Assembly: GCA_964016885.1 (NCBI GenBank)
Contig: OZ024742.1
Coordinates: 351,354,001 to 351,418,000 of the forward strand
Source of the DNA: Eledone cirrhosa
Taxonomy: Eukaryota
Length of the DNA: 64,000 nucleotides
Reading direction: 5' to 3'
How positions within the stretch are numbered: the stretch's first letter is position 1; each line of letters opens with the position of its first letter. Position numbers and translations under genes: made by a program. This document shows positions 5,460-63,176 of this stretch, one piece after another. The notes below the pieces were generated by a model that was not told where the DNA came from, did no database searches, and was given only the letters and a program-made list of their open reading frames with translations.

Positions 5460-7225
5460 CTAAAGGAATAAGGGTGGGGAGTTCAGGCCGGGGGGAGTGT
5501 GGGTCAGTAAGATGAAGATGGTTCTTTGTTCGACTCTAAGGAGATTGGCGTGTGTTCCGTGGAATTGGAGTAGGCCACAGACTGTGAGATGGCGTGCGTA
5601 ATGTCCAGGGGCAACAAAGTGGCGGGCGATGGGGGAACTACCACCGAGACGAATATCCCAGAGGTGCTCAGTGAATCGGTCCGCCAGGCGGCGCCCCGTC
5701 TGTCCGATATAAGTCGGGTGAGAGCGGTGTGGACGAGAGAGAGGGTAACCTCTGCGGATGAAATGGCTGACTAGGGAAAGGGCCTGGGACTCGAAGTCAG
5801 CATCTCGGCTACAGAGGCGGCGGATCCTGAGGAGTTGGGAGTAGGGAATAGAGTGTTTAGTGTGTGGGGGTGGGAAGAGGGGAAGTCGAGGTAAGAGTGG
5901 GAGTCAATTGGTTTGAAGAAGGCGGAGGTGACGATGGATTGGTGGGAAGGGTCGAAGGCGACGGAGATGTCTAAGAAATGGACGTGGGTGGTGGAGATAG
6001 AGGTGGTGAAGTGGAGGGAGGCGTGGGAGGTGCAGAAGACGGAGAAAAAGGAGTCGAGCTGTTCTCGGGTGAGGATCCTGGCTCCGATACATCGTCAATG
6101 TAACGACCGTACAGTTCGGGCGTGGGGCCGGTGTACTGGGCAAAGATTTGGGCCTCAACATGGCCAACAAAAAAGGTTGGCATAGTTCGGGCCCATTCAT
6201 GTACCCATGGCTATACCCGTGACCAGTTGGTAAAACTCACCCGAGAAGGAGAAACAGTTGAGGGTGAGGACCAGCTCGGCGAGGCGAAGGAGGGTGGAGG
6301 TGGAGGGAATGGGGGAGGGGCGAAGGTCGAGGTAGAGTTTGAGGGCGCGTAGGCCGTCGACGTGGGGGATGACGGTATAGGGGGACTTGATGTCTAGGGT
6401 GAAGAGGAAGGGCTGTGGGCCGGGTGGGTAGGTGAAGGAGTCGAAAAGGCGCAGGGCGTGGTTGGTGTCGGAGATGTGGGAGGGGAGGGTGGTGACAAGG
6501 GGGGCGAGGATGGAGTCAAGAAAGGCGGAGATGAGTTCGGTGGGGCAGTTGCAAGCGGAGACGATGGGGCGGCCGGGGTTGTCGGGTTTGCGGAGTTTGG
6601 GGAGGAAGTAGATGGTGGGGGTGCGGACGATGAGGTGGGAAGCAGTGGGGGGGGGGGGGGGGGTAGGAGGAGGAGGCGACAACGTCTTGGTTGGTGGAGG
6701 AAACTTGTTGTTGGTAGAGAGGTGTGGGATCGGAGTGTAGAGGGCGGTAGAAGAGGGGTTTACAGAGCTGCCTGAGAGCTTCGGCCGTGTAGAGGTCTGC
6801 GCGCCACACCACCACGGCGCCTCCCTTGTCCGCCGGTTTGATGACGATGTCATCTCGGCTACGGAGGGATCGGAGAGCGAGGAGTTCACCCCGTGAGATA
6901 TTGTACCGTTTGGAACGGTGGCGGAAGTCGAAACGATTTACTGCGCTACTGCTGGCATCGACGAACGCGTCCAGGGTGCTAAATTGCCCTGGTGCCGGCG
7001 TCCAAGAAGATGGTCCTCGACCCAGGTGGGGAAACGGGTCTGGGGCGTCCGGAGCCGGTGGCGGTTGGCCGAAATGTGGCTGTAGCTTCGTGCGTCGCAC
7101 GAATCGCTCGACTTCCATTCGGGTGCCAAACTCGTCGCTGTGCGGAGTGTGGGGTATGAAGCGAAGGCTTCTACTAAGGAGTGAGCGCTCAGGTGCGGAG
7201 AGGGGGAGGTCAGGGTGTATCTGAG
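5460..7225 (-). pseudogene. PLE reverse transcriptase + GIY-YIG endonuclease, frameshifted
   Basis: Across frames: IKPADKGGAVVVW, PGRPIVSAC, FTLDIKS, GIAMGT..GPNYANLF, RYIDD, SIPYSQLLRIRRLCS, RRGYP, then YIGQTGRRLADRFTEHL...PPGLN and a stop at ~5460. Confidence 0.92.
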
Positions 7226-8419
7226 ACAAGTTATTCATATGTGACCTGTTTACGACCGGAATTCGTTAGCAACGAAAACCTGTTTCATGTGATTCAATTA
7301 TTTCTATTGTTTCAACGTTTTAGATCAAATATATGATAACATTCGATATATCAAAAGATAATAGAAATGCTACATACATAAATTATACAATTCAGTGAAG
7401 TAAACTGTGATCGGGATGATAGGATTAAATAACAAAAACATATAATCGATAAATTTGATTGTAATAGGTTTGGTATGTTAGTAAATAGATATATATATAC
7501 ACACATACACGCCAAATGTACATACACATATGCTCAATTTTATTATCTCTGGAAAAGTTTCAAAGAACAGAAGATTATCGGTGATCACTCATAATTCATG
7601 TTTTATTTTGTATATGGTGGATCAGAAAATAAAACTCTATCTTCGCTGACCGAATGAATGGTAAACGAGTTTAGCGTCGTACTTTATAATCTGGACAGCG
7701 CCGGAATGTCTTAAATTGAGACGCGATTTTACAAGTGTACTAGGATTCACGAAGTACACTTATTGAAGGCTTAAACGACCTTCTACATTGATATTCTAAC
7801 CCTAAAATTATGTATTCTTCCATAACTTAGGGAAGGGAAATTATTTCTGCCTAGTACTGAGGTGGACTTATATGTAGGGAAATAGGAAGATAGTATTGCC
7901 CCAATACAACTGATTTCTACATTTAATTTCCAGTTCCATCGCAACGCGTCAGCAATTCTGTCTTGCCTTCAATTCCAATTTATTATCTTTCTATTTCAAA
8001 TATGTTTTTGGAAAATCTTTGCTACCTATATGCAAATACGAGTAACAGCGAGGGACACACATACAAACGATATAATAACTCAAATTATCTTCTGCCTTCA
8101 AACTAAATATTAATGTGGTCAACTTTCTCTCACGAGTCTGATGTCTGTCGAATAAAAATAAGTAATTCTGCTTGGAGGAAAATTTATATATATGCTGTTA
8201 ATTTAAATATTTTTGTTTACGATCTGAAAATAATTAATTGTTATCACATTTGTAGAGCATATTAATCTGTTCTATCATTTAGACAGCTCTCAACTGTATG
8301 CAGGGATTCAATAAGTACAAGATCCCGAAGCATTGTATTAGTGAATCTAACATAAGGAAGATACAGAGAAAACTTAATTCTAGATAATATTTAGAAGAAA
8401 GATCTTGAATAAACCGAAC

Positions 8420-9236: not shown

Positions 9237-9283
<47 letters not shown>

Positions 9284-9570
9284 AAATAACGAAACGAAAT
9301 TAAATTTCGTTTCGCTTCTAACTCACTTTTGTATGACTGACGCTTAAATAATTAAGTTAAAAGTGTACATCTACATATGTATACGGAAATATTAGTATGC
9401 ATAAAAATACACACATGTATACATATGTACATGTACTGAGTTTTTCACTGGACACTTTACTGTGAGTGTCCAGCTAGTCTGTATGTAAACAAACAGACAA
9501 ACCGGGTTTTAGAGTCATACGGGTTTTCAAGGAAACACATTTCCTCTATTCTCCAGAGAGCCAGACAGGA

Positions 9571-9613
9571 ATATTGGACTAGTTTCGATGTTATTACATC
9601 TCATCAGCAATAT
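9571..9613 (-). ncRNA. Type I hammerhead ribozyme
   Basis: Reverse complement of 10093-10135. Confidence 0.9.
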
Positions 9614-10092
9614 AAACCCATCTTCCGGCTTCTCTAGAGAATCGTAAAAGCACATATCGTTATATGCTTTTTCTATGAAAATTAGTAGTGGGCAGACTAA
9701 TTTGCATAGAACGTGAGTCATTGTACAAACCCGGTTTGTCTGTTTGTTTACATACAGACTAGCTGGACACTCACAGTAAAGTGTCCAGGGAAAAACTCAG
9801 TACATGTACATATGTATACATGTGTGTATTTATATGCATACTAATATTTCCGTATACATATGTAGATGTACACTTTTAACTTAATTGTTTAAGCGTCAGT
9901 CATACAAAAGTGAGTTAGAAGCGAAACGAAATTTAATTTCGTTTCGGTATTTGTTTTTATCGTTTCCGCTGAACCGGTGCGTACAATGACTCACGTTCTA
10001 TGCAAATTAGTCTGCCCACTACTAATTTTCATAGAAAAAGCATATAACGATATGTGCTTTTACGATTCTCTAGAGAAGCCGGAAGATGGGTG

Positions 10093-10135
10093 ATATTGCT
10101 GATGAGATGTAATAACATCGAAACTAGTCCAATAT
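10093..10135 (+). ncRNA. Type I hammerhead ribozyme, canonical core, GUC site
   Basis: ATATTG CTGATGA GATGT AATA ACATC GAAAC TA GTC CAATAT. Stem I can extend via TCTCTAGAGAAGCCGGA/TCTGGCTCTCTGGAGA. Confidence 0.92.
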
Positions 10136-10232
10136 TCCTGTCTGGCTCTCTGGAGAATAGAGGAAATGTGTTTCCTTGAAAACCCGTATGACTCTAAAAC
10201 CCGGTTTGTCTGTTTGTTTACATACAGACCAG

Positions 10233-10323
<91 letters not shown>

Positions 10324-45490: not shown

Positions 45491-48400
45491 CATAGAATAT
45501 TCGAAAATATTCTGTATGTTTATAATAAACATTTTGAAGACCTAATCGCTATAGAATAGAATACGTCACGTATTACAATTAGATTCTCGATAAAAGCAAG
45601 GGAAGTAATCTACGCGTTTCATTCTTGTTAGAAATCATCAGGACTACATATCCAGTGCTTTTATCGAGAATGACACAGCTAGAGACTTATAGAATACTTA
45701 GCTGTGTACAGGAACTGGTTTGAAAGAGCGGTTGCCGGTCCGGCAGAAATTAGAAATTGGAATAAATGCTCTGAAATAGCGATATATATGTGAATATAGA
45801 CATAGAATATTCGAAAATATTCTGTATGTTTATAATAAACATTTTGAAGACCTAATCGCTATAGAATAGAATACGTCACGTATTACAATTAGATTCTCGA
45901 TAAAAGCAAGGGAAGTAATCTACGCGTTTCATTCTTGTTAGAAATCATCAGGACTACATATCCAGTGCTTTTATCGAGAATGACACAGCTAGAGACTTAT
46001 AGAATACTTAGCTGTGTACAGGAACTGGTTTGAAAGAGCGGTTGCCGGTCCGGCAGAAATTAGAAATTGGAATAAATGCTCTGAAATAGCGATATATATG
46101 TGAATATAGACATAGAATATTCGAAAATATTCTGTATGTTTATAATAAACATTTTGAAGACCTAATCGCTATAGAATAGAATACGTCACGTATTACAATT
46201 AGATTCTCGATAAAAGCAAGGGAAGTAATCTACGCGTTTCATTCTTGTTAGAAATCATCAGGACTACATATCCAGTGCTTTTATCGAGAATGACACAGCT
46301 AGAGACTTATAGAATACTTAGCTGTGTACAGGAACTGGTTTGAAAGAGCGGTTGCCGGTCCGGCAGAAATTAGAAATTGGAATAAATGCTCTGAAATAGC
46401 GATATATATGTGAATATAGACATAGAATATTCGAAAATATTCTGTATGTTTATAATAAACATTTTGAAGACCTAATCGCTATAGAATAGAATACGTCACG
46501 TATTACAATTAGATTCTCGATAAAAGCAAGGGAAGTAATCTACGCGTTTCATTCTTGTTAGAAATCATCAGGACTACATATCCAGTGCTTTTATCGAGAA
46601 TGACACAGCTAGAGACTTATAGAATACTTAGCTGTGTACAGGAACTGGTTTGAAAGAGCGGTTGCCGGTCCGGCAGAAATTAGAAATTGGAATAAATGCT
46701 CTGAAATAGCGATATATATGTGAATATAGACATAGAATATTCGAAAATATTCTGTATGTTTATAATAAACATTTTGAAGACCTAATCGCTATAGAATAGA
46801 ATACGTCACGTATTACAATTAGATTCTCGATAAAAGCAAGGGAAGTAATCTACGCGTTTCATTCTTGTTAGAAATCATCAGGACTACATATCCAGTGCTT
46901 TTATCGAGAATGACACAGCTAGAGACTTATAGAATACTTAGCTGTGTACAGGAACTGGTTTGAAAGAGCGGTTGCCGGTCCGGCAGAAATTAGAAATTGG
47001 AATAAATGCTCTGAAATAGCGATATATATGTGAATATAGACATAGAATATTCGAAAATATTCTGTATGTTTATAATAAACATTTTGAAGACCTAATCGCT
47101 ATAGAATAGAATACGTCACGTATTACAATTAGATTCTCGATAAAAGCAAGGGAAGTAATCTACGCGTTTCATTCTTGTTAGAAATCATCAGGACTACATA
47201 TCCAGTGCTTTTATCGAGAATGACACAGCTAGAGACTTATAGAATACTTAGCTGTGTACAGGAACTGGTTTGAAAGAGCGGTTGCCGGTCCGGCAGAAAT
47301 TAGAAATTGGAATAAATGCTCTGAAATAGCGATATATATGTGAATATAGACATAGAATATTCGAAAATATTCTGTATGTTTATAATAAACATTTTGAAGA
47401 CCTAATCGCTATAGAATAGAATACGTCACGTATTACAATTAGATTCTCGATAAAAGCAAGGGAAGTAATCTACGCGTTTCATTCTTGTTAGAAATCATCA
47501 GGACTACATATCCAGTGCTTTTATCGAGAATGACACAGCTAGAGACTTATAGAATACTTAGCTGTGTACAGGAACTGGTTTGAAAGAGCGGTTGCCGGTC
47601 CGGCAGAAATTAGAAATTGGAATAAATGCTCTGAAATAGCGATATATATGTGAATATAGACATAGAATATTCGAAAATATTCTGTATGTTTATAATAAAC
47701 ATTTTGAAGACCTAATCGCTATAGAATAGAATACGTCACGTATTACAATTAGATTCTCGATAAAAGCAAGGGAAGTAATCTACGCGTTTCATTCTTGTTA
47801 GAAATCATCAGGACTACATATCCAGTGCTTTTATCGAGAATGACACAGCTAGAGACTTATAGAATACTTAGCTGTGTACAGGAACTGGTTTGAAAGAGCG
47901 GTTGCCGGTCCGGCAGAAATTAGAAATTGGAATAAATGCTCTGAAATAGCGATATATATGTGAATATAGACATAGAATATTCGAAAATATTCTGTATGTT
48001 TATAATAAACATTTTGAAGACCTAATCGCTATAGAATAGAATACGTCACGTATTACAATTAGATTCTCGATAAAAGCAAGGGAAGTAATCTACGCGTTTC
48101 ATTCTTGTTAGAAATCATCAGGACTACATATCCAGTGCTTTTATCGAGAATGACACAGCTAGAGACTTATAGAATACTTAGCTGTGTACAGGAACTGGTT
48201 TGAAAGAGCGGTTGCCGGTCCGGCAGAAATTAGAAATTGGAATAAATGCTCTGAAATAGCGATATATATGTGAATATAGACATAGAATATTCGAAAATAT
48301 TCTGTATGTTTATAATAAACATTTTGAAGACCTAATCGCTATAGAATAGAATACGTCACGTATTACAATTAGATTCTCGATAAAAGCAAGGGAAGTAATC

Positions 48401-49388
48401 TACGCGTTTCATTCTTGTTAGAAATCATCAGGACTACATATCCAGTGCTTTTATCGAGAATGACACAGCTAGAGACTTATAGAATACTTAGCTGTGTACA
48501 GGAACTGGTTTGAAAGAGCGGTTGCCGGTCCGGCAGAAATTAGAAATTGGAATAAATGCTCTGAAATAGCGATATATATGTGAATATAGACATAGAATAT
48601 TCGAAAATATTCTGTATGTTTATAATAAACATTTTGAAGACCTAATCGCTATAGAATAGAATACGTCACGTATTACAATTAGATTCTCGATAAAAGCAAG
48701 GGAAGTAATCTACGCGTTTCATTCTTGTTAGAAATCATCAGGACTACATATCCAGTGCTTTTATCGAGAATGACACAGCTAGAGACTTATAGAATACTTA
48801 GCTGTGTACAGGAACTGGTTTGAAAGAGCGGTTGCCGGTCCGGCAGAAATTAGAAATTGGGATAAATGCTCTGAAATAGCGATATATATGTGAATATAGA
48901 CATAGAATATTCGAAAATATTCTGTATGTTTATAATAAACATTTTGAAGACCTAATCGCTATAGAATAGAATACGTCACGTATTACAATTAGATTCTCGA
49001 TAAAAGCAAGGGAAGTAATCTACGCGTTTCATTCTTGTTAGAAATCATCAGGACTACATATCCAGTGCTTTTATCGAGAATGACACAGCTAGAGACTTAT
49101 AGAATACTTAGCTGTGTACAGGAACTGGTTTGAAAGAGCGGTTGCCGGTCCGGCAGAAATTAGAAATTGGAATAAATGCTCTGAAATAGCGATATATATG
49201 TGAATATAGACATAGAATATTCGAAAATATTCTGTATGTTTATAATAAACATTTTGAAGACCTAATCGCTATAGAATAGAATACGTCACGTATTACAATT
49301 AGATTCTCGATAAAAGCAAGGGAAGTAATCTACGCGTTTCATTCTTGTTAGAAATCATCAGGACTACATATCCAGTGCTTTTATCGAG
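45491..49388 (-). ncRNA. 13 tandem type I hammerhead ribozymes (minus strand, 310-bp period)
   Basis: Each unit contains GTAATCTACGCGTTTCATTCTTGTTAGAAATCATCAGGACTAC, the reverse complement of the HHR core. Confidence 0.9.
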
Positions 49389-49392
49389 TGTC

Positions 49393-49481
49393 ATTCTCGA
49401 TAAAAGCACTGGATATGTAGTCCTGATGATTTCTAACAAGAATGAAACGCGTAGATTACTTCCCTTGCTTTTATCGAGAAT
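49393..49481 (+). ncRNA. Type I hammerhead ribozyme (first of 12 plus-strand copies, 310-bp period)
   Basis: ATTCTCGATAAAAGCA ctggatat GTAGTC CTGATGA T TTCT AACA AGAA T GAAAC GC GTA GATTAC ttccct TGCTTTTATCGAGAAT. Predicted cleavage is after 49453. Confidence 0.92.
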
Positions 49482-52400
49482 CTAATTGTAATACGTGACG
49501 TATTCTATTCTATAGCGATTAGGTCTTCAAAATGTTTATTATAAACATACAGAATATTTTCGAATATTCTATGTCTATATTCACATATATATCGCTATTT
49601 CAGAGCATTTATTCCAATTTCTAATTTCTGCCGGACCGGCAACCGCTCTTTCAAACCAGTTCCTGTACACAGCTAAGTATTCTATAAGTCTCTAGCTGTG
49701 TCATTCTCGATAAAAGCACTGGATATGTAGTCCTGATGATTTCTAACAAGAATGAAACGCGTAGATTACTTCCCTTGCTTTTATCGAGAATCTAATTGTA
49801 ATACGTGACGTATTCTATTCTATAGCGATTAGGTCTTCAAAATGTTTATTATAAACATACAGAATATTTTCGAATATTCTATGTCTATATTCACATATAT
49901 ATCGCTATTTCAGAGCATTTATTCCAATTTCTAATTTCTGCCGGACCGGCAACCGCTCTTTCAAACCAGTTCCTGTACACAGCTAAGTATTCTATAAGTC
50001 TCTAGCTGTGTCATTCTCGATAAAAGCACTGGATATGTAGTCCTGATGATTTCTAACAAGAATGAAACGCGTAGATTACTTCCCTTGCTTTTATCGAGAA
50101 TCTAATTGTAATACGTGACGTATTCTATTCTATAGCGATTAGGTCTTCAAAATGTTTATTATAAACATACAGAATATTTTCGAATATTCTATGTCTATAT
50201 TCACATATATATCGCTATTTCAGAGCATTTATTCCAATTTCTAATTTCTGCCGGACCGGCAACCGCTCTTTCAAACCAGTTCCTGTACACAGCTAAGTAT
50301 TCTATAAGTCTCTAGCTGTGTCATTCTCGATAAAAGCACTGGATATGTAGTCCTGATGATTTCTAACAAGAATGAAACGCGTAGATTACTTCCCTTGCTT
50401 TTATCGAGAATCTAATTGTAATACGTGACGTATTCTATTCTATAGCGATTAGGTCTTCAAAATGTTTATTATAAACATACAGAATATTTTCGAATATTCT
50501 ATGTCTATATTCACATATATATCGCTATTTCAGAGCATTTATTCCAATTTCTAATTTCTGCCGGACCGGCAACCGCTCTTTCAAACCAGTTCCTGTACAC
50601 AGCTAAGTATTCTATAAGTCTCTAGCTGTGTCATTCTCGATAAAAGCACTGGATATGTAGTCCTGATGATTTCTAACAAGAATGAAACGCGTAGATTACT
50701 TCCCTTGCTTTTATCGAGAATCTAATTGTAATACGTGACGTATTCTATTCTATAGCGATTAGGTCTTCAAAATGTTTATTATAAACATACAGAATATTTT
50801 CGAATATTCTATGTCTATATTCACATATATATCGCTATTTCAGAGCATTTATTCCAATTTCTAATTTCTGCCGGACCGGCAACCGCTCTTTCAAACCAGT
50901 TCCTGTACACAGCTAAGTATTCTATAAGTCTCTAGCTGTGTCATTCTCGATAAAAGCACTGGATATGTAGTCCTGATGATTTCTAACAAGAATGAAACGC
51001 GTAGATTACTTCCCTTGCTTTTATCGAGAATCTAATTGTAATACGTGACGTATTCTATTCTATAGCGATTAGGTCTTCAAAATGTTTATTATAAACATAC
51101 AGAATATTTTCGAATATTCTATGTCTATATTCACATATATATCGCTATTTCAGAGCATTTATTCCAATTTCTAATTTCTGCCGGACCGGCAACCGCTCTT
51201 TCAAACCAGTTCCTGTACACAGCTAAGTATTCTATAAGTCTCTAGCTGTGTCATTCTCGATAAAAGCACTGGATATGTAGTCCTGATGATTTCTAACAAG
51301 AATGAAACGCGTAGATTACTTCCCTTGCTTTTATCGAGAATCTAATTGTAATACGTGACGTATTCTATTCTATAGCGATTAGGTCTTCAAAATGTTTATT
51401 ATAAACATACAGAATATTTTCGAATATTCTATGTCTATATTCACATATATATCGCTATTTCAGAGCATTTATTCCAATTTCTAATTTCTGCCGGACCGGC
51501 AACCGCTCTTTCAAACCAGTTCCTGTACACAGCTAAGTATTCTATAAGTCTCTAGCTGTGTCATTCTCGATAAAAGCACTGGATATGTAGTCCTGATGAT
51601 TTCTAACAAGAATGAAACGCGTAGATTACTTCCCTTGCTTTTATCGAGAATCTAATTGTAATACGTGACGTATTCTATTCTATAGCGATTAGGTCTTCAA
51701 AATGTTTATTATAAACATACAGAATATTTTCGAATATTCTATGTCTATATTCACATATATATCGCTATTTCAGAGCATTTATTCCAATTTCTAATTTCTG
51801 CCGGACCGGCAACCGCTCTTTCAAACCAGTTCCTGTACACAGCTAAGTATTCTATAAGTCTCTAGCTGTGTCATTCTCGATAAAAGCACTGGATATGTAG
51901 TCCTGATGATTTCTAACAAGAATGAAACGCGTAGATTACTTCCCTTGCTTTTATCGAGAATCTAATTGTAATACGTGACGTATTCTATTCTATAGCGATT
52001 AGGTCTTCAAAATGTTTATTATAAACATACAGAATATTTTCGAATATTCTATGTCTATATTCACATATATATCGCTATTTCAGAGCATTTATTCCAATTT
52101 CTAATTTCTGCCGGACCGGCAACCGCTCTTTCAAACCAGTTCCTGTACACAGCTAAGTATTCTATAAGTCTCTAGCTGTGTCATTCTCGATAAAAGCACT
52201 GGATATGTAGTCCTGATGATTTCTAACAAGAATGAAACGCGTAGATTACTTCCCTTGCTTTTATCGAGAATCTAATTGTAATACGTGACGTATTCTATTC
52301 TATAGCGATTAGGTCTTCAAAATGTTTATTATAAACATACAGAATATTTTCGAATATTCTATGTCTATATTCACATATATATCGCTATTTCAGAGCATTT

Positions 52401-53036
52401 ATTCCAATTTCTAATTTCTGCCGGACCGGCAACCGCTCTTTCAAACCAGTTCCTGTACACAGCTAAGTATTCTATAAGTCTCTAGCTGTGTCATTCTCGA
52501 TAAAAGCACTGGATATGTAGTCCTGATGATTTCTAACAAGAATGAAACGCGTAGATTACTTCCCTTGCTTTTATCGAGAATCTAATTGTAATACGTGACG
52601 TATTCTATTCTATAGCGATTAGGTCTTCAAAATGTTTATTATAAACATACAGAATATTTTCGAATATTCTATGTCTATATTCACATATATATCGCTATTT
52701 CAGAGCATTTATTCCAATTTCTAATTTCTGCCGGACCGGCAACCGCTCTTTCAAACCAGTTCCTGTACACAGCTAAGTATTCTATAAGTCTCTAGCTGTG
52801 TCATTCTCGATAAAAGCACTGGATATGTAGTCCTGATGATTTCTAACAAGAATGAAACGCGTAGATTACTTCCCTTGCTTTTATCGAGAATCTAATTGTA
52901 ATACGTGACGTATTCTATTCTATAGCGATTAGGTCTTCAAAATGTTTATTATAAACATACAGAATATTTTCGAATATTCTATGTCTATATTCACATATAT
53001 ATCGCTATTTCAGAGCATTTATTCCAATTTCTTATG

Positions 53037-53128
<92 letters not shown>

Positions 53129-57789: not shown

Positions 57790-57793
<4 letters not shown>

Positions 57794-59725
57794 AATGAAT
57801 AATAACAGGTAGACATCATAAAAAGGTAATTTATTCCGTGTGCTTACAAATGTTTCCACGGTGGTACTACAGCCTAGTTATGCTAAGTGCAAATTTACAA
57901 CTATTTGCAGAACTCAAATATCCAATGCTGTGACCACTGTATCCTCAGAGCAGAATGGTAAAATGTACAATGTAAATACCCTTAAGTGGGGTTGTTGGGG
58001 AAGATAGAGTAGAAAAGGAAGAGAGAAAAGTAGGGGAGAGGGAGAGAGAGAGAAATATATGCAGGGGTTGGAGAAGTAGGAGAGAGTGGTTTGTAGATAT
58101 CTTAATCAAAATGTTATGGTAGGGCTTTATTATGCTGGTTACTTTTGGAGAGATGCGTTGATAGTTAAGGTCTGAATTATTTATTGCCCCAGAGGGCAGG
58201 TTCATATATGTAGAGAGGGAGGTAGGCCAAAGGCGAGAGAGAGAGAGGGAGTGTAATGGATGTAGACAGAGAGGTAGAGAGGGGACAGACGAAGTTTATG
58301 TGGTGAGTGAACTTTGGGTTTGTAGTAGTAATCTGCGAATTGCACAGAGTTACCATTTATAGTGATAAGCAGTCTATTGTATTGTAGTGTGGGGGAAGAG
58401 AAGGTGGTTAGCTAGAAAGCGATGTTATAGTTACGGGTTCGAATGTTAAGTTATTTTATAGTGAGAGAATTTAGCTTTTAGCTTTTAGTTTGTGGTTGCA
58501 GTATAATGGTCGTTCAATTCTATCAGAAAGTAGTTTGTTTTTGGATTTTAATATGTAAAAGAGTTCAAGGTTACATAACCTGCAGTACTTTAATCCACTC
58601 CGATATGCACTTGCGCTGAAAATATATCCCATTTTAAGGTGAACTGTTGGTTGCGTTCACGGAGTTGCCAGGTCTTGTTGGCGAGCGTGGTCACAAAACG
58701 GTGATTAGGATGTTTGATTGAGAATCGATAACGGTACCAGCGAGATTTAAACGAGGTGGTGGTAGATCCGATATAATACCATTTCTGGTCGTTCGATTCA
58801 ACCGTGCATTGGTAAACAATGTTGGACTTTAGGCATTCATTCTTCAATGGACATCTTTCAGGTAGATGGCAGTTACATTCTTTGTTGTGGGTAGCGGGTA
58901 TACCATGGACAGGTTGTGATAGCAGTGCAGGTGGATTGTGTAATACCCGTCTCCCATTTAGTGGTTGGGAGGCAGATATTACGTTCTGCCCATCTATTAC
59001 TAAAATGTTTTGTTTTGTAGAGTTGTTTAATTGCCTTAAGGTAAGTTTTTTTTAATGTATGCTTCAAGGTTTGGTGCCGTGGAGTATGATAGTCTAATAG
59101 TTTTAGATTTCAGAATGTTGCTGTATTTATGGGAACTAGGGAAATGTTTGTTGATTAACTTAAAGAATGAAAGAGATAGTTTTGTAGTAATCGAGGCATT
59201 AAAAATAGGATTGTACCAGTTATACTTTCTACAACGTGATTTATTTGGTGGTGATTTTCTATTATTAGTATGTCTGGTAGTATAGTGTGTGTGTGCTTGT
59301 ATTTTAGTCCCCCGGTTACGTATTCCTTGATTTCGTGTAGAGCTATGTGTGTTATGGACATTCCTATCAATGTATTCTATTGTATCCCGGTGGTCGGCAT
59401 TCCTTAATGCATTATTGTAGTATTCAGCGTGTTCACTAAAAATATCAGAGTTAGACGATAGACGAGAGATTCTAAGAGAAATACTCCGGGGAACCGATTT
59501 GATCATGGAGAGTGGGTGGTTAGAGTTAAAGTTAATATACGTAATGTTCTCATTCATCTTGTGGAAGGGTAGTATCTGTCCGGTATTTAAATTAAGAGTT
59601 ACGTCCAGAAAGTTTACTACTTTAAGATTGTATTTGTATGTTATTTTTAGACCCAGTTCACTAAAAGATTTTCTAATATTTTTCCGTAGCCTTTCAAGAT
59701 TTTGGTTATTCAAGTTATTAACTAA
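57790..59725 (-). mobile_element. Naiad-like PLE, 5' truncated (RT C-terminal half, GIY-YIG, UTR, HHR)
   Basis: VNFLDVTLNL, SNHP, WYNP, IRLSYS..PN, CNC...CPL..ECL..NIVY.C..YYIGST..FKSRW, CRLC. Frameshifts are present. Confidence 0.9.
57841..57952 (-). ncRNA. Type I hammerhead ribozyme with ~85-nt branched stem II
   Basis: TGCT CTGAGGA TACAGTGGT..ACAGC...GCTGT..ACCACCGTG GAAAC ATTT GTA AGCA. Confidence 0.78.
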
Positions 59726-59741
59726 ATATATATATATATAT

Positions 59742-61858
59742 AAAATCAGGTGGCGAGCATTCCACTTTGATAAATCTAATATAAATGAAAATGTCTCGGA
59801 CTTAAACAAAGTTTTCAAATCCAAAAGAAATCCACCCCCCAACAAACTTTTATCTGACTTTGAAAACGATATAATTTCTATCATACAAGGAGTCAAATTT
59901 AAGAGAAACTTCAAAGACCAGGAATATCTGAAAGGCATTAGGGATAATATTGAGAACTTGGAGAAAACTGAGAAGATCTTGGTAAAATCTGACAAGACCA
60001 ACAACCTCTATGGAGTGCAGAAAGACATGTATAATGGCCTCATACTAAAAGAACTGAGGAAAAAGTACAAGGTAACAGATAAGGCCGAGCTACAGAAAAT
60101 GAATGTTGAGGCATCTTGTATAATGCACGAGTTGGAAATCGAGAACAGAACACAACCTTTCGTGCCCAGGAAACCGAAGATCAATATGAAAGATCATAAG
60201 AGAAATTTCGAGAATGACTTGCCAGTCAGATTGATTGCACCATCAAAATCGGACCTGGGTAAACTAAGCAAAAACATTCTTGACAGGGTGATACAGCAAA
60301 TTAAAAACTTGGGTTGTTTACCTAACCTGAGCTTGTGGAAGGGAACTGGTGAGGTTGTTGAGTGGTTTAAGCAAATTAAATATAACAATAATAATAAGTT
60401 TATTCAACTTGATATTGCTAACTATTATTCTTCCATTACCCCTAATCTACTAAATAAGGCACTAAATTACGCATTCAAACATACAGACCTAACTAGCAAT
60501 GAAATGCACATTATATTATCGGCTAGGAAAACATTGATAGAATTTAATGACCAACTATGGACCCGAGCAGATAGAGATAACAATTTTGACATTACTATGG
60601 GATCATCCGACTCAGCTCAGGTAACTGACCTTGTGGGCTTATTTTTAATCAATTCGCTGCATAGGAAAATACCTGGTACTACCGGAGGTTTATATAGAGA
60701 TGACATGCTTTTACTTATTGATAATAATAACTCTGAACTAAATAGAAAAAGAAAACAAATTACACAATTGTTTAATCACTTTAATCTAAAAATAGAAATT
60801 GAGAATAGCCATAGAATAGTCAACTTCCTAGATATAACATTAAATCTCAACACATGTCTTCACTATCCATTTCACAAATTGAATGAAAACTTAAACTATG
60901 TCAGCTTTAACTCTAACCACCCCAAATCCGTTAAAAACACTATAGTAAACTCTGTTCAATCACGTATCTCTAGAATCTCATCTAATAAAAAGATTTTCGA
61001 CGAAAAAGCCCATTATTACAATGAAGCGTTAGCTAGAGCAGGATATAGTGATAAAATTATGTACATAGATAATGATAAACAAATTAAACAAAATAACAAC
61101 TGTTTTAATTATGGCCACAACCTTAACAACTATAATAGAAAGCATTACAATAATTCCAAAAGCCATAAAAGAAATAGAACTAGGAATATAATATGGTTTG
61201 CCCCCCCCCCCCCCTTCTCACTAAACATTAAAACCCACATTGCTAAACAATTTTTTAAAGCTCTCGATAATCGCTTCCCGAGAACACATAGGTATCACTC
61301 AATTTTCAATAGACATACTATAAAATAACCTACTCATCCACCAAAAATTTAGCGCAAAATATTAATAGAATAAATAACAGGAACTTAAAACCTAGCGATA
61401 ATAGCATAAATAATATACAAGTTAACAAATGTAACTGTAGAGATAGATCTAAATGTCCGTTAAATAACAACTGCTTAGTTAAAAATATAATATACAACTG
61501 TAATGTTAAAACGGACGTTAATTCTTTTAACTACGTTGGTTCTACATCGACGGAATTTAAACTTCGCTATAACAACCACAAGAATTCTTTCACAGATCCA
61601 TCCCAAAAATCTTCAACAGCACTATCAGGCGTACTCTGGCAACTTAGGCATGATAACGTTAGATATTCGACGACTTGGAATATAGTTTCAAGGGGGATTC
61701 CTTTTAATTCATCCTCTGAGACATGTGACCTCTGTGCGGAGGAGATATTCTTTATACTAAAATCTAAAAATTCCCTTAATCTACGGACAAATTTATTCAG
61801 TTGCTGCAGACATAGATTGAACTCAACGTTTAAATATAAATTTAAATTTAAAATGTAA
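59742..61858 (+). pseudogene. Naiad-like PLE RT + C-terminal GIY-YIG endonuclease, near-intact (5' truncated, one frameshift at ~61325)
   Basis: KIRWRAF, SDKTNN, KDHK, PVRLI.P, FIQLDIANYY, ITMGS, GLYRDD, VNFLD, SNHP. After the shift: CNC..CPL..CL..IIY..YVGST..FKLRYNNH..CDLC..E..LN..CRH, stop at 61858. Confidence 0.93.
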
Positions 61859-63176
61859 TTATGTTTGTTTTGATTTGATTTGTAATTATTTATGAAACTA
61901 GCCGATAAATCTTTCGATTTCTTCTTTTTATTAAAACATTCTTTTTAAACATTCTTCATGAATAATTAAACTACCCTAAAAGCTGATGCTCCAAATATAT
62001 CGAATTAAATTTTAAACTATATAAACTTCTATATTATATATAAGAACATATGTCGACCAAATGGGTATCCTAAACTTTTGGAATGATTTCTGCTAGACAG
62101 GATTTGGTAAACAATTTTTGTTTTATCTGTTTCGACTCTGATGCTTATGATGATCTTGGCAATATATTGTCAATTAACTTTGAAAGGCTGATCTCTGTGT
62201 TTTATTTTTATTTGTATTATTTTTTAATATTATTTTTTAATATTTTTTAATATTTTGTAATATTTTTTATTTTTAATATTAAATGTTTTAGTTTTTCTGT
62301 TTATTTATTTATTTATTTTCTTGTCTCTGATGTTTTTATTTTTATTTTTATTTTTATTTTTATTTTTATTAATATATTGAAATCTGTTCTCTATTTCTGC
62401 TTGATCGACAATCAGCTAGAATAAAGACAAGAATAGTATTGTTAAAATTAATATAGACTCTATATATATATGTGTATATATACACACATATATGTATACT
62501 TGAATTTTTATAGCACAATGAGAATGTTTTCGTGTGAATTGGGAGTTTGTTTATAATTATGATATAAACATATGAATTTTTAAAAACTAGACATAAGATC
62601 ATTACTTTTCACACATTATAGATACATGTCTCATTCATGAATACTGGTACTTACATTATAATGCCTGTTTTATACGAACTAATATTTTCTACGGATAAAA
62701 CATAGCGGTTTTAAATTCTGCATCGTTTGTGTCTGGTTATGTTTCATTTTTTCTTTTTCATTTTCTCTTTTTTTCTCTCTATATAACGGCTATTTTCTCT
62801 CTTAACTACATACATCTCTCTTTACATTAATACTAGAGCTAAACAAATAAATAAATAAATGAATAAATGTATCAACCGATACTCAACTTCCTAATTTCTC
62901 TATCTATCTCTATCTATCTCTTTCTTTTTTTTTTTCCTCTCTCTATATATATTTCTCTCTGTTTCTTTACATGGAGTTCTTCTCTTTATCTATCTTTCTA
63001 TATCCCTCTATTTAGTCACATGCATTTCTTCTTTTTCTTCGTTTCTCTTTCTTTCTCTCTTTATCTCTTTCTTTTTACAACTGTCCTCAATATTTTTTAC
63101 TATCAAATCAACCTCCCAAATGCAAGGTGATTGAAAGGTATGTCGTATCTATTTATTTATAAGACTGTTTATATTG

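What the first reader, a model, noticed from the sequence alone, without database searches (positions are those of the whole stretch)
45491..53032. 310-bp hammerhead retrozyme array: ~24 identical units, each with a self-cleaving ribozyme
Seen: an exact 310-bp period, only one substitution noticed (48861), no ORF, insertion into a (TA/TATG)n tract, and a complete type I HHR in every unit. The HHR has stem I GTAGTC/GATTAC extended by a perfect 16-bp helix, CUGAUGA, stem II TTCT-AACA-AGAA, GAAA and a GUA site. The rest of the unit is also hairpin-rich: AGAATATT-TTCG-AATATTCT, TGCCGG-A-CCGGCA, ACACAGCTA/TAGCTGTGT and ATAGCGAT/ATCGCTAT. Known: newt satellite 2, Schistosoma Sm-alpha and metazoan non-LTR retrozymes are 170-400-bp HHR tandem repeats processed into monomeric, often circular, RNAs. 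Inference: this is a very young cephalopod retrozyme, made by many rounds of reverse transcription around a 310-nt circular RNA.
Basis: partly seen in the sequence, partly recalled or inferred. Interest (0 to 1): 0.95.

Follow-up and report, generated by a model that had tools for sequence, protein, structure and literature searches.

The report
Mirror-image arrays of a jumping ribozyme
This repeat is one of roughly 1,500-2,000 young insertions of a small non-coding RNA element carrying a predicted self-cutting ribozyme, and most are mirror-image pairs of arrays, apparently because a borrowed Penelope-type enzyme copies the RNA from both sides of the cut chromosome, which makes the poorly understood Penelope insertion mechanism testable.

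Summary
The 310-bp unit and its type I hammerhead (HHR) motif are real, but the array is not one tandem run. It is a 7.5-kb head-to-head palindrome: 12.6 units on the minus strand, 11.8 on the plus strand, inside (TA)n. This layout is the family rule. Of 78 end-matched insertions in 121 Mb of one chromosome, 66 are two-armed. Every two-armed one has one 'short' end and one end with a ~35-nt tail, the Penelope-like element (PLE) signature. Centres are scattered, microhomology-joined and not fold-backs. Both arms share one haplotype in 46 of 49 cases (chance 13%). Inherited variants spare the ribozyme (0 of 12 harmful) while sporadic ones do not (15 of 18). Best reading: a non-LTR retrozyme whose monomer circle is reverse-transcribed from both target ends by a PLE enzyme, then joined. 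An intact (TA)n-targeting Hydra-type PLE in this genome is a candidate helper, not proven. Cleavage, the circle and raw-read support were not shown. Retrozymes and inverted PLE insertions are known; I found no paper reporting this combination. The scan earlier noted palindromic mini-PLE insertions in another genome.

The parts
45490..49388 (-). Left arm: 12.6 tandem 310-bp units, RNA sense pointing left; 13 HHR cores; outer end of 'short' (S) type (last matching unit offset 186; offsets are 0-based from 49388)
49388..53033 (+). Right arm: 11.8 tandem units, RNA sense pointing right; 12 HHR cores; outer end of 'tail' (T) type (offset 234)
49388..49395 (.). Centre junction: 1-nt overlap (G at 49388) joining inner offsets 8 (minus arm) and 0 (plus arm); 7 nt between perfect arms
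49393..49481 (+). Example HHR domain: 16-bp outer helix 49393-49408/49466-49481, stem I 49417-49422/49454-49459, core 49423-49429, U-U pair 49430/49443, stem II 49431-49434/49439-49442, GAAA 49444-49447, minimal palindromic stem III, predicted cut after 49453
49331..49361 (-). Example HHR core of the minus arm (innermost of 13)
49551..49570 (+). 8-bp hairpin just upstream of the S start site, kept with compensatory changes in two sister families (candidate enzyme-binding signal; inferred)
49583..49592 (+). S start site (offset 195-204): AU-repeat tract complementary to a (TA)n primer; 56 of 64 S ends map to offset 195 or 204
49584..49618 (+). ~35-nt tail ending at the T start site (offset 230; 41 of 63 T ends), present at one outer end of each two-armed insertion only
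48861..48861 (-). Only internal substitution in the array (sporadic, one unit)
45261..45489 (.). Left (TA/TATG)n target flank
53034..53128 (.). Right (TA)n target flank
16347..24348 (.). Separate head-to-head copy (internally deleted) of the candidate helper, a Hydra-type PLE; tail end at left, short end at right, HHR at about 24285-24320 sharing 26 of 28 aligned positions with the retrozyme core and stem II

Best explanation
A young non-autonomous retrozyme family mobilised by a Penelope-like element. Steps: (1) arrays are transcribed (inferred); (2) tandem minimal hammerheads, probably pairing as dimers through the palindromic stem III, cut out 310-nt monomers that circularise (inferred; selection on the fold is shown); (3) a PLE RT/endonuclease cuts both strands of a (TA)n tract (target shown, enzyme inferred); (4) one target end anneals to the AU-repeat tract at site S and primes rolling-circle cDNA, the other end primes at site T about 35 nt downstream on the same RNA or an identical copy (end positions, S+T pairing and shared haplotype shown; priming inferred); (5) both cDNAs stop at random points and are joined by microhomology-mediated end joining with occasional short inserts (junction pattern shown; pathway inferred). 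The product is a head-to-head palindrome made at insertion. When the second priming fails, a single arm, usually ending at S, is left.
For: Window array is minus-then-plus. Census of C1 1-120.8 Mb by end patterns: 58 S and 67 T ends form 47 divergent pairs, all 47 S+T, none S+S or T+T; after fetching, 66 of 78 insertions are two-armed, all S+T, 11 single-armed (9 end at S, 2 at T), 1 cut by a gap (my tally). In the 12 insertions listed by HHR core alone, 10 are two-armed. Inner ends uniform over the unit (chi2 p=0.45; 2 of 120 within 5 nt of the HHR cut); not mirror-symmetric (4 of 62 within 15 nt, 6.2 expected); 24 of 43 insert-free centres overlap by 2 nt or more against an 18.5% null, 17 of 60 carry inserts. 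46 of 49 arm pairs share one haplotype (chance 12.9%); 19 haplotypes, 13 seen once. HHR-domain changes: fixed 0 harmful/12 benign, sporadic 15/3, Fisher p=1e-5 (2/12 vs 18/3 counting stem indels, p=5e-5); transition-only null P=6e-4. Sister families keep the fold with 17 of 35 pairs changed on both sides and a U3-A8 core swap. An intact Hydra-type PLE in this genome shows the same layout: full arm ends short, inverted arm carries a 68-nt tail, (TA)n target. A PLE enzyme cleaves and extends both target strands and has two RT start sites flanking the tail in vitro (PMC11167929).
Against: No RNA evidence and no cleavage assay. Monomer HHR scaffold is 3.5 kcal/mol above the MFE of its domain; Rfam gathering not reached. 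8 of 9 Xenopus retrozyme dimers did not cleave in vitro and HHR mutants did not affect PLE insertion in vitro. Five non-fixed variants are shared by both arms (0.03 expected), two of them in register in the outermost unit only (L070, L078), which a pure monomer circle cannot give; L087 arms differ at one site. One arm repeats two variants exactly 7 units apart (L034/L035), i.e. some later amplification or a multimer template. In vitro the two strands showed no difference in RT start site, unlike the strict S+T pairing here. Similarity of the S/tail region to the candidate helper is not significant (478 of 1,000 shuffles). All but one analysed insertion come from one chromosome.
Confidence: 0.6

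Rival explanations
1. Twin priming by a PLE enzyme, but mostly on uncleaved linear (or circular multimer) transcripts of existing arrays; the monomer circle is only an occasional bottleneck.
For: In-register variants in the outermost unit of both arms in L070 and L078, and 5 shared non-fixed variants overall; PLE insertion in vitro used unprocessed RNA; weak cleavage of minimal HHRs.
Against: 13 of 19 shared haplotypes were seen once yet are fixed across up to 17 units of both arms; sporadic variants recur between insertions in only 3 of 74 cases; purifying selection on the HHR implies cleavage matters for transmission.
Confidence: 0.2
2. Short PLE-end palindromes are inserted first and each arm then grows in place by unequal crossover, as proposed for vertebrate retrozymes (10.64898/2026.07.22.740005).
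For: A 7-unit repeat of two variants in one arm; adjacent units sharing a deletion in L036; older sister families have shorter arrays in the loci seen.
Against: Needs more than one unit per arm at the start, which already implies a circle or multimer; arms up to about 14 kb in a family with 0.40 sporadic variants per kb; block-shared variants are rare.
Confidence: 0.1
3. Self-priming fold-back: one cDNA folds back and copies itself or an antisense template, as suggested for rotifer Penelope elements (PMC3846280).
For: This window's own centre is nearly symmetric (offsets 8 and 0); both arms share a haplotype.
Against: Symmetric centres are no commoner than chance (4 of 62 vs 6.2); copying the first arm back would give two identical ends, but all two-armed insertions are S+T; arm lengths are only weakly correlated (Spearman 0.26, p=0.05).
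Confidence: 0.07
4. Assembly or long-read fold-back artefact.
For: Near-identical units are hard to assemble; no raw reads across a centre were seen; one locus (L065) looks duplicated beside a gap.
Against: Artefacts would be symmetric and would invert the flanks; here ends are unequal and fixed, centres are asymmetric with microhomology, flanks are unique, and the same layout occurs in older families and in an autonomous PLE. Unit numbers per arm may still be misassembled.
Confidence: 0.03

Closest known systems
Metazoan non-LTR retrozymes (Cervera and de la Pena 2020, PMC7229834; passages and Discussion read)
   Same: About 300-bp low-GC (34%) non-coding tandem units, type I HHR in each, thousands of dispersed copies; U-U at the base of helix II as in axolotl HHR_Amex2.
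   Different: Described as head-to-tail tandem arrays; the word 'inverted' does not occur in the main text. Here most insertions are head-to-head pairs of arrays with two fixed start sites. Circular RNA was shown there, not here.
Penelope-like element insertions with inverted pLTR and 30-40-bp tail (PMC3846280, PMC8557442; passages read)
   Same: Head-to-head inverted 5'-truncated copy, tail at one end only, microsatellite target, no discernible TSD.
   Different: No ORF; both arms are multi-unit arrays; the arrangement is near-obligatory and quantifiable; centres are not palindromic self-priming junctions.
Poseidon element of Anolis, PAc, in vitro (PMC11167929; part 2 of 4 and passages read)
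   Same: Internal RT initiation at two sites flanking the tail, downstream of the HHR; both target strands cut and extended; AT-rich target.
   Different: PAc start site had no homology to the target and no strand difference; here site S has an AU-repeat tract matching (TA)n and each insertion uses S once and T once.
LINE-1 twin priming (reviewed in PMC10760644; passages read)
   Same: Two priming events at the target, cDNAs joined by microhomology, giving a 5' inversion.
   Different: In L1 the second priming site is not described as fixed in the passages read; here it is fixed, lies 3' of the first site, and both cDNAs run through many units.
Hydra-clade PLEs (PMC8557442, section read)
   Same: The candidate helper has RWR, DKT, CxCX5C, CxxC and CxH motifs, an HHR and (TA)n insertion.
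   Different: It is about 5 kb with a long simple-repeat 3' region, against generally under 3 kb; no phylogeny was run and Pfam gave no RT hit.

Membership tests
Type I hammerhead ribozyme | Core C3 U4 G5 A6 N7 G8 A9, G12 A13 A14 A15, U16 H17 with stems I-III in type I order | tested here: met
   25 exact cores in the window
Type I hammerhead ribozyme | Paired 10.1-11.1 at the base of stem II | tested here: not met
   U-U in this haplotype; A-U in 12 other insertions; U-U is a described natural variant
Type I hammerhead ribozyme | Rfam hammerhead model at gathering score | tested here: not met
   0 hits; HH9 19.2 bits vs 52
Type I hammerhead ribozyme | Structure kept by covariation and selection | tested here: met
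   17 of 35 pairs changed on both sides over 6 rows from 3 families (related rows, descriptive); fixed vs sporadic p=1e-5
Type I hammerhead ribozyme | Self-cleavage | not testable with these tools
   needs in vitro transcription
Metazoan non-LTR retrozyme | 150-450-bp non-coding, low-GC tandem units each with a type I HHR | tested here: met
   310 bp, GC 0.34, no ORF
Metazoan non-LTR retrozyme | Dispersed multi-locus family | tested here: met
   4,177 exact cores; 1,235 S ends; 778 forward-strand T ends
Metazoan non-LTR retrozyme | Expressed as monomeric circular RNA | tested here: inconclusive
   no RNA holder listed; circular contigs are also what tandem DNA gives
Metazoan non-LTR retrozyme | Target-site duplication when present | tested here: inconclusive
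   both flanks are (TA)n, so a duplication cannot be read
PLE-mobilised insertion | Head-to-head inverted 5'-truncated copy | tested here: met
   66 of 78
PLE-mobilised insertion | 30-40-bp tail at one end only | tested here: met
   offsets 195/204 vs 230-237; 47 of 47 pattern pairs S+T
PLE-mobilised insertion | Sequence link to the pLTR of an autonomous PLE | tested here: inconclusive
   HHR core and stem II 26 of 28 positions with the Hydra-type element (E 4e-5), 11 of them core consensus; S/tail similarity not significant; none with a second PLE family
Autonomous PLE | Own RT + GIY-YIG ORF | tested here: not met
   no ORF in the unit

The most novel reading that the evidence does not exclude
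Each insertion records a two-ended rolling-circle reaction: a dimeric Penelope-type enzyme holds one circular ribozyme RNA, starts one cDNA at site S from one target end and a second at site T from the other, and the cell joins them. This would explain the long-unexplained PLE inverted repeat and one-sided tail as the product of two obligatory, distinct priming sites, give the first insertion-level evidence that animal retrozyme arrays are written at insertion from a monomer circle under selection for ribozyme function, and mean the element seeds over a thousand kilobase-scale perfect palindromes per genome. A further, weaker possibility (about 0.1) is that the identical circle is shared across species.
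Probability: 0.45. Interest if true: 0.85.

Novelty: new variant of a known kind. Interest (0 to 1): 0.7.

Why it matters
How PLEs form tandem/inverted insertions with a one-sided tail is named as an open problem (PMC8557442), and how animal retrozymes integrate is a proposal without insertion-level evidence in the papers I read. This family gives hundreds of near-identical, haplotype-tagged insertion events with defined start sites, a candidate intact enzyme in the same genome and a 310-nt template, so twin priming, same-molecule use and circle dependence can be tested directly. It also indicates selection on a genomic hammerhead at the transmission step. Long perfect palindromes should yield double-stranded RNA on read-through and be fragile in DNA (inference, untested).

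Tried and rejected
DNA search of the genome with the unit returned nothing because common words are skipped; patterns were used instead. Rfam miRNA hits at the centre only reflect the palindrome. Fold-back symmetry as a rule: rejected. Enrichment of inner ends or sporadic changes at the HHR cut, expected from end-to-end jumps on linear monomers: not seen. Homology of the S/tail region to the Hydra-type PLE looked convincing by eye but failed the shuffle test (478, 845 and 679 of 1,000 for families A, B, C). A second young PLE family (745-codon frame; window 59743-61858) shows no DNA link beyond TA repeats. Pfam and PDB searches did not classify the helper ORF. Expression: no RNA holder listed. 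Raw-read run X21 laid 0 reads, no test. No match in JGI metagenome contigs or IMG/VR. The first junction script mis-scored centres next to haplotype SNPs; it was redone with per-locus haplotypes on 60 centres. Alignment A1 had one row reversed and was replaced by A2. Rows dropped before the variant counts: three sister-family fragments, the first L065 copy (two arms), one inner L043 fragment, 45 nt at each arm end, and 10 ambiguous variant calls. A>G excess among fixed variants as RNA editing: not supported outside helices (3 A>G vs 2 T>C). Loci for family C could not be cut out, so its link to a PLE stays open.
Full report
Observation. The period is exactly 310 bp, with one internal substitution at 48861. 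TRF gives two arrays meeting at 49388. Mapping shows the left one (45490-49388, 12.6 units, 13 HHR cores) on the minus strand and the right one (49388-53033, 11.8 units, 12 cores) on the plus strand, with 7 nt between perfect arms. RNA-sense directions point outward into (TA)n tracts. The unit is 34% GC without an ORF. Offsets below are 0-based from 49388.

The ribozyme. Each unit has a full type I core, a 6-bp stem I extended by a 16-bp helix, a 4-bp stem II closed by U10.1-U11.1, and a 2-bp stem III with palindromic ACGCGU; the predicted cut follows 49453. Rfam does not call it (0 gathering hits; HH9 19.2 bits against 52). The scaffold is 3.5 kcal/mol above the domain's MFE, while two stem III segments form a -9.5 kcal/mol duplex, fitting the dimer mode described for metazoan HHRs (PMC4209133, passages). 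U-U at stem II and U3-A8 are described natural variants (PMC7229834; PMC3088659, passages). Two comparative tests favour function. First, older sister families B and C keep the helices through compensatory change (17 of 35 pairs, 6 rows from 3 families; descriptive, as rows are related) and B swaps C3-G8 for U3-A8. Second, over 71 insertions (190 kb), variants fixed in whole insertions never break the core or a pair (0 harmful, 12 benign, plus 2 single-base insertions in stem I), whereas sporadic variants do (15 harmful, 3 benign, plus 3 stem indels); p=1e-5, and P=6e-4 under a transition-only null. Sporadic variants may include assembly errors. Cleavage itself was not tested.

The family. The exact 43-nt core occurs 4,177 times in the 3.0-Gb genome. 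Outer ends sit at two places: S (offset 195 in 39, 204 in 17 of 64) and T (230 in 41 of 63, range 230-237), each followed by (TA)n. Genome-wide there are 1,235 S-pattern ends and 778 forward-strand T ends (reverse count inflated by overlapping matches), so about 1,500-2,000 insertions (inference). In the first 120.8 Mb of C1, 58 S and 67 T ends form 47 divergent pairs, all S+T. Fetching all 78 insertions gave 66 two-armed (all S+T; one possibly an assembly duplicate), 11 single-armed (9 S, 2 T) and 1 cut by a gap (my tally). The census misses insertions whose ends fit neither pattern, such as this window's own (186 and 234). Of 12 insertions listed by core alone, 10 are two-armed. Complete arms average 1.4 kb (120 arms); one reaches about 14 kb.

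Centres and haplotypes. Inner ends are uniform across the unit (p=0.45) and not enriched at the cut site (2 of 120). Mirror-symmetric centres are at chance level (4 of 62), so this window's near-symmetric centre is atypical. 24 of 43 insert-free centres overlap by at least 2 nt (null 18.5%); 17 of 60 carry inserts, several matching nearby unit sequence. Both arms carry the same majority haplotype in 46 of 49 insertions (chance 12.9%), and 13 of 19 haplotypes were seen once. A variant private to one insertion yet present in every unit of both arms needs a single-unit template copied repeatedly. Exceptions matter: five non-fixed variants are shared by both arms, two in register in the outermost unit, one insertion has discordant arms, and one arm has a 7-unit repeat. 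Some templates are therefore multimers, or arrays are later remodelled.

Helper. A Hydra-type PLE (RWR, DKT, CxCX5C motifs as in PMC8557442 section 11) has many 758-codon open frames. L209 shows an inverted arm ending in a 68-nt tail, a full arm ending short, and (TA)n flanks; a deleted copy lies at window 16347-24348. Its HHR core and stem II match the retrozyme at 26 of 28 positions, but the S/tail regions do not align above shuffles. It is a candidate only.

Mechanism. Shown: two fixed, complementary outer ends; (TA)n target; random microhomology-joined centres; shared haplotypes; selection on the HHR. Inferred: transcription, cleavage, circularisation, double-strand cutting and twin priming by a PLE enzyme, end joining. 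At S the RNA has an AU-repeat tract that a (TA)n primer can anneal to; at T only 1-3 nt match. Because most single arms end at S, and the helper's full arm ends short, S is probably the first priming. Fold-back copying would give two S ends and is excluded by the S+T rule.

Comparison. It works like a non-LTR retrozyme and meets the sequence-level criteria; circular RNA is untested. It integrates like a PLE: inverted head-to-head copies and a one-sided 30-40-bp tail are known (PMC3846280; PMC8557442), as are two RT start sites and extension of both strands in vitro (PMC11167929) and twin priming in L1 (PMC10760644). A 2026 preprint (parts 1 and 3 of 5 and passages read) links retrozymes to PLE pLTRs by homology and proposes local amplification. 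Searches returned no paper describing head-to-head retrozyme arrays, obligatory S+T pairing or haplotype sharing; the library lacks most subscription papers, and supplements (for example Fig. S9 of PMC7229834 and the preprint's tables) were not seen. An octopus repeat annotation does not mention ribozymes (PMC13282606, passages); the host here was not identified. An earlier scan note (e1-7858806) reports palindromic mini-PLE insertions in another genome with centres built anew; it agrees but was not checked.

Verdict. Real, and more informative than first described: a new variant of a known kind. Interest 0.7; 0.85 if the same-circle twin-priming model is confirmed.

Noticed in passing
window 9281-10236: A second HHR family, also a head-to-head insertion between (TA)n tracts; cores at 9607 (-) and 10099 (+) with a palindromic ACTAGT stem III.
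   Followed up: partly
window 16347-24348; L209-L212: Hydra-type PLE: head-to-head, internally deleted copy in the window; many genomic copies with a 758-codon open frame; short end in 10 and 68-nt tail end in 13 of 25 copies.
   Followed up: yes
window 57791-62460; L136-L165, L196: Two further PLE-type families lying head-to-head; the right one is young (150 scored matches at 96% amino-acid identity or more, some 745-codon frames).
   Followed up: partly
L077:3318-3818, L103-L122; L123:470-830: Older sister retrozyme families B (319-320 bp, about 95% identity, U3-A8 core) and C (about 91%), both with inverted pairs: successive waves of one lineage.
   Followed up: partly
L031, L047, L054, L194, L210, L211: Another HHR repeat family (period about 421 bp in L211) with U-U at the base of stem II, divergent pair in L054.
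   Followed up: no
(runs X1, X2, X4): 20 runs under 17 organism labels in 16 studies hold 71-100% of the unit's sampled words; the three contig runs laid each hold one clean 340-nt circular contig identical to this unit (depth 128, 12, 10). X1 may be the source sample; run kinds are not on record. Related species, diet, contamination and transfer are not distinguished.
   Followed up: partly
L036:2099-2370: 272 bp of unrelated GC-rich sequence captured between the two arms.
   Followed up: no
L043:718-5451: Complex centre (minus, short plus, short minus, plus), suggesting repeated template switches before joining.
   Followed up: no
L034:5707-9901 and L035:1-1878: Two variants recur exactly 7 units apart in a 19-unit arm of a 308-bp haplotype.
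   Followed up: partly
window 33880-33960 (-): HHR-like core related to the Hydra-type element's, in a short (TA)n-flanked insertion.
   Followed up: no
window 5460-7265 (-), 39603-40235 (-): Further broken PLE-type ORF fragments judged by eye; no Pfam hit.
   Followed up: no
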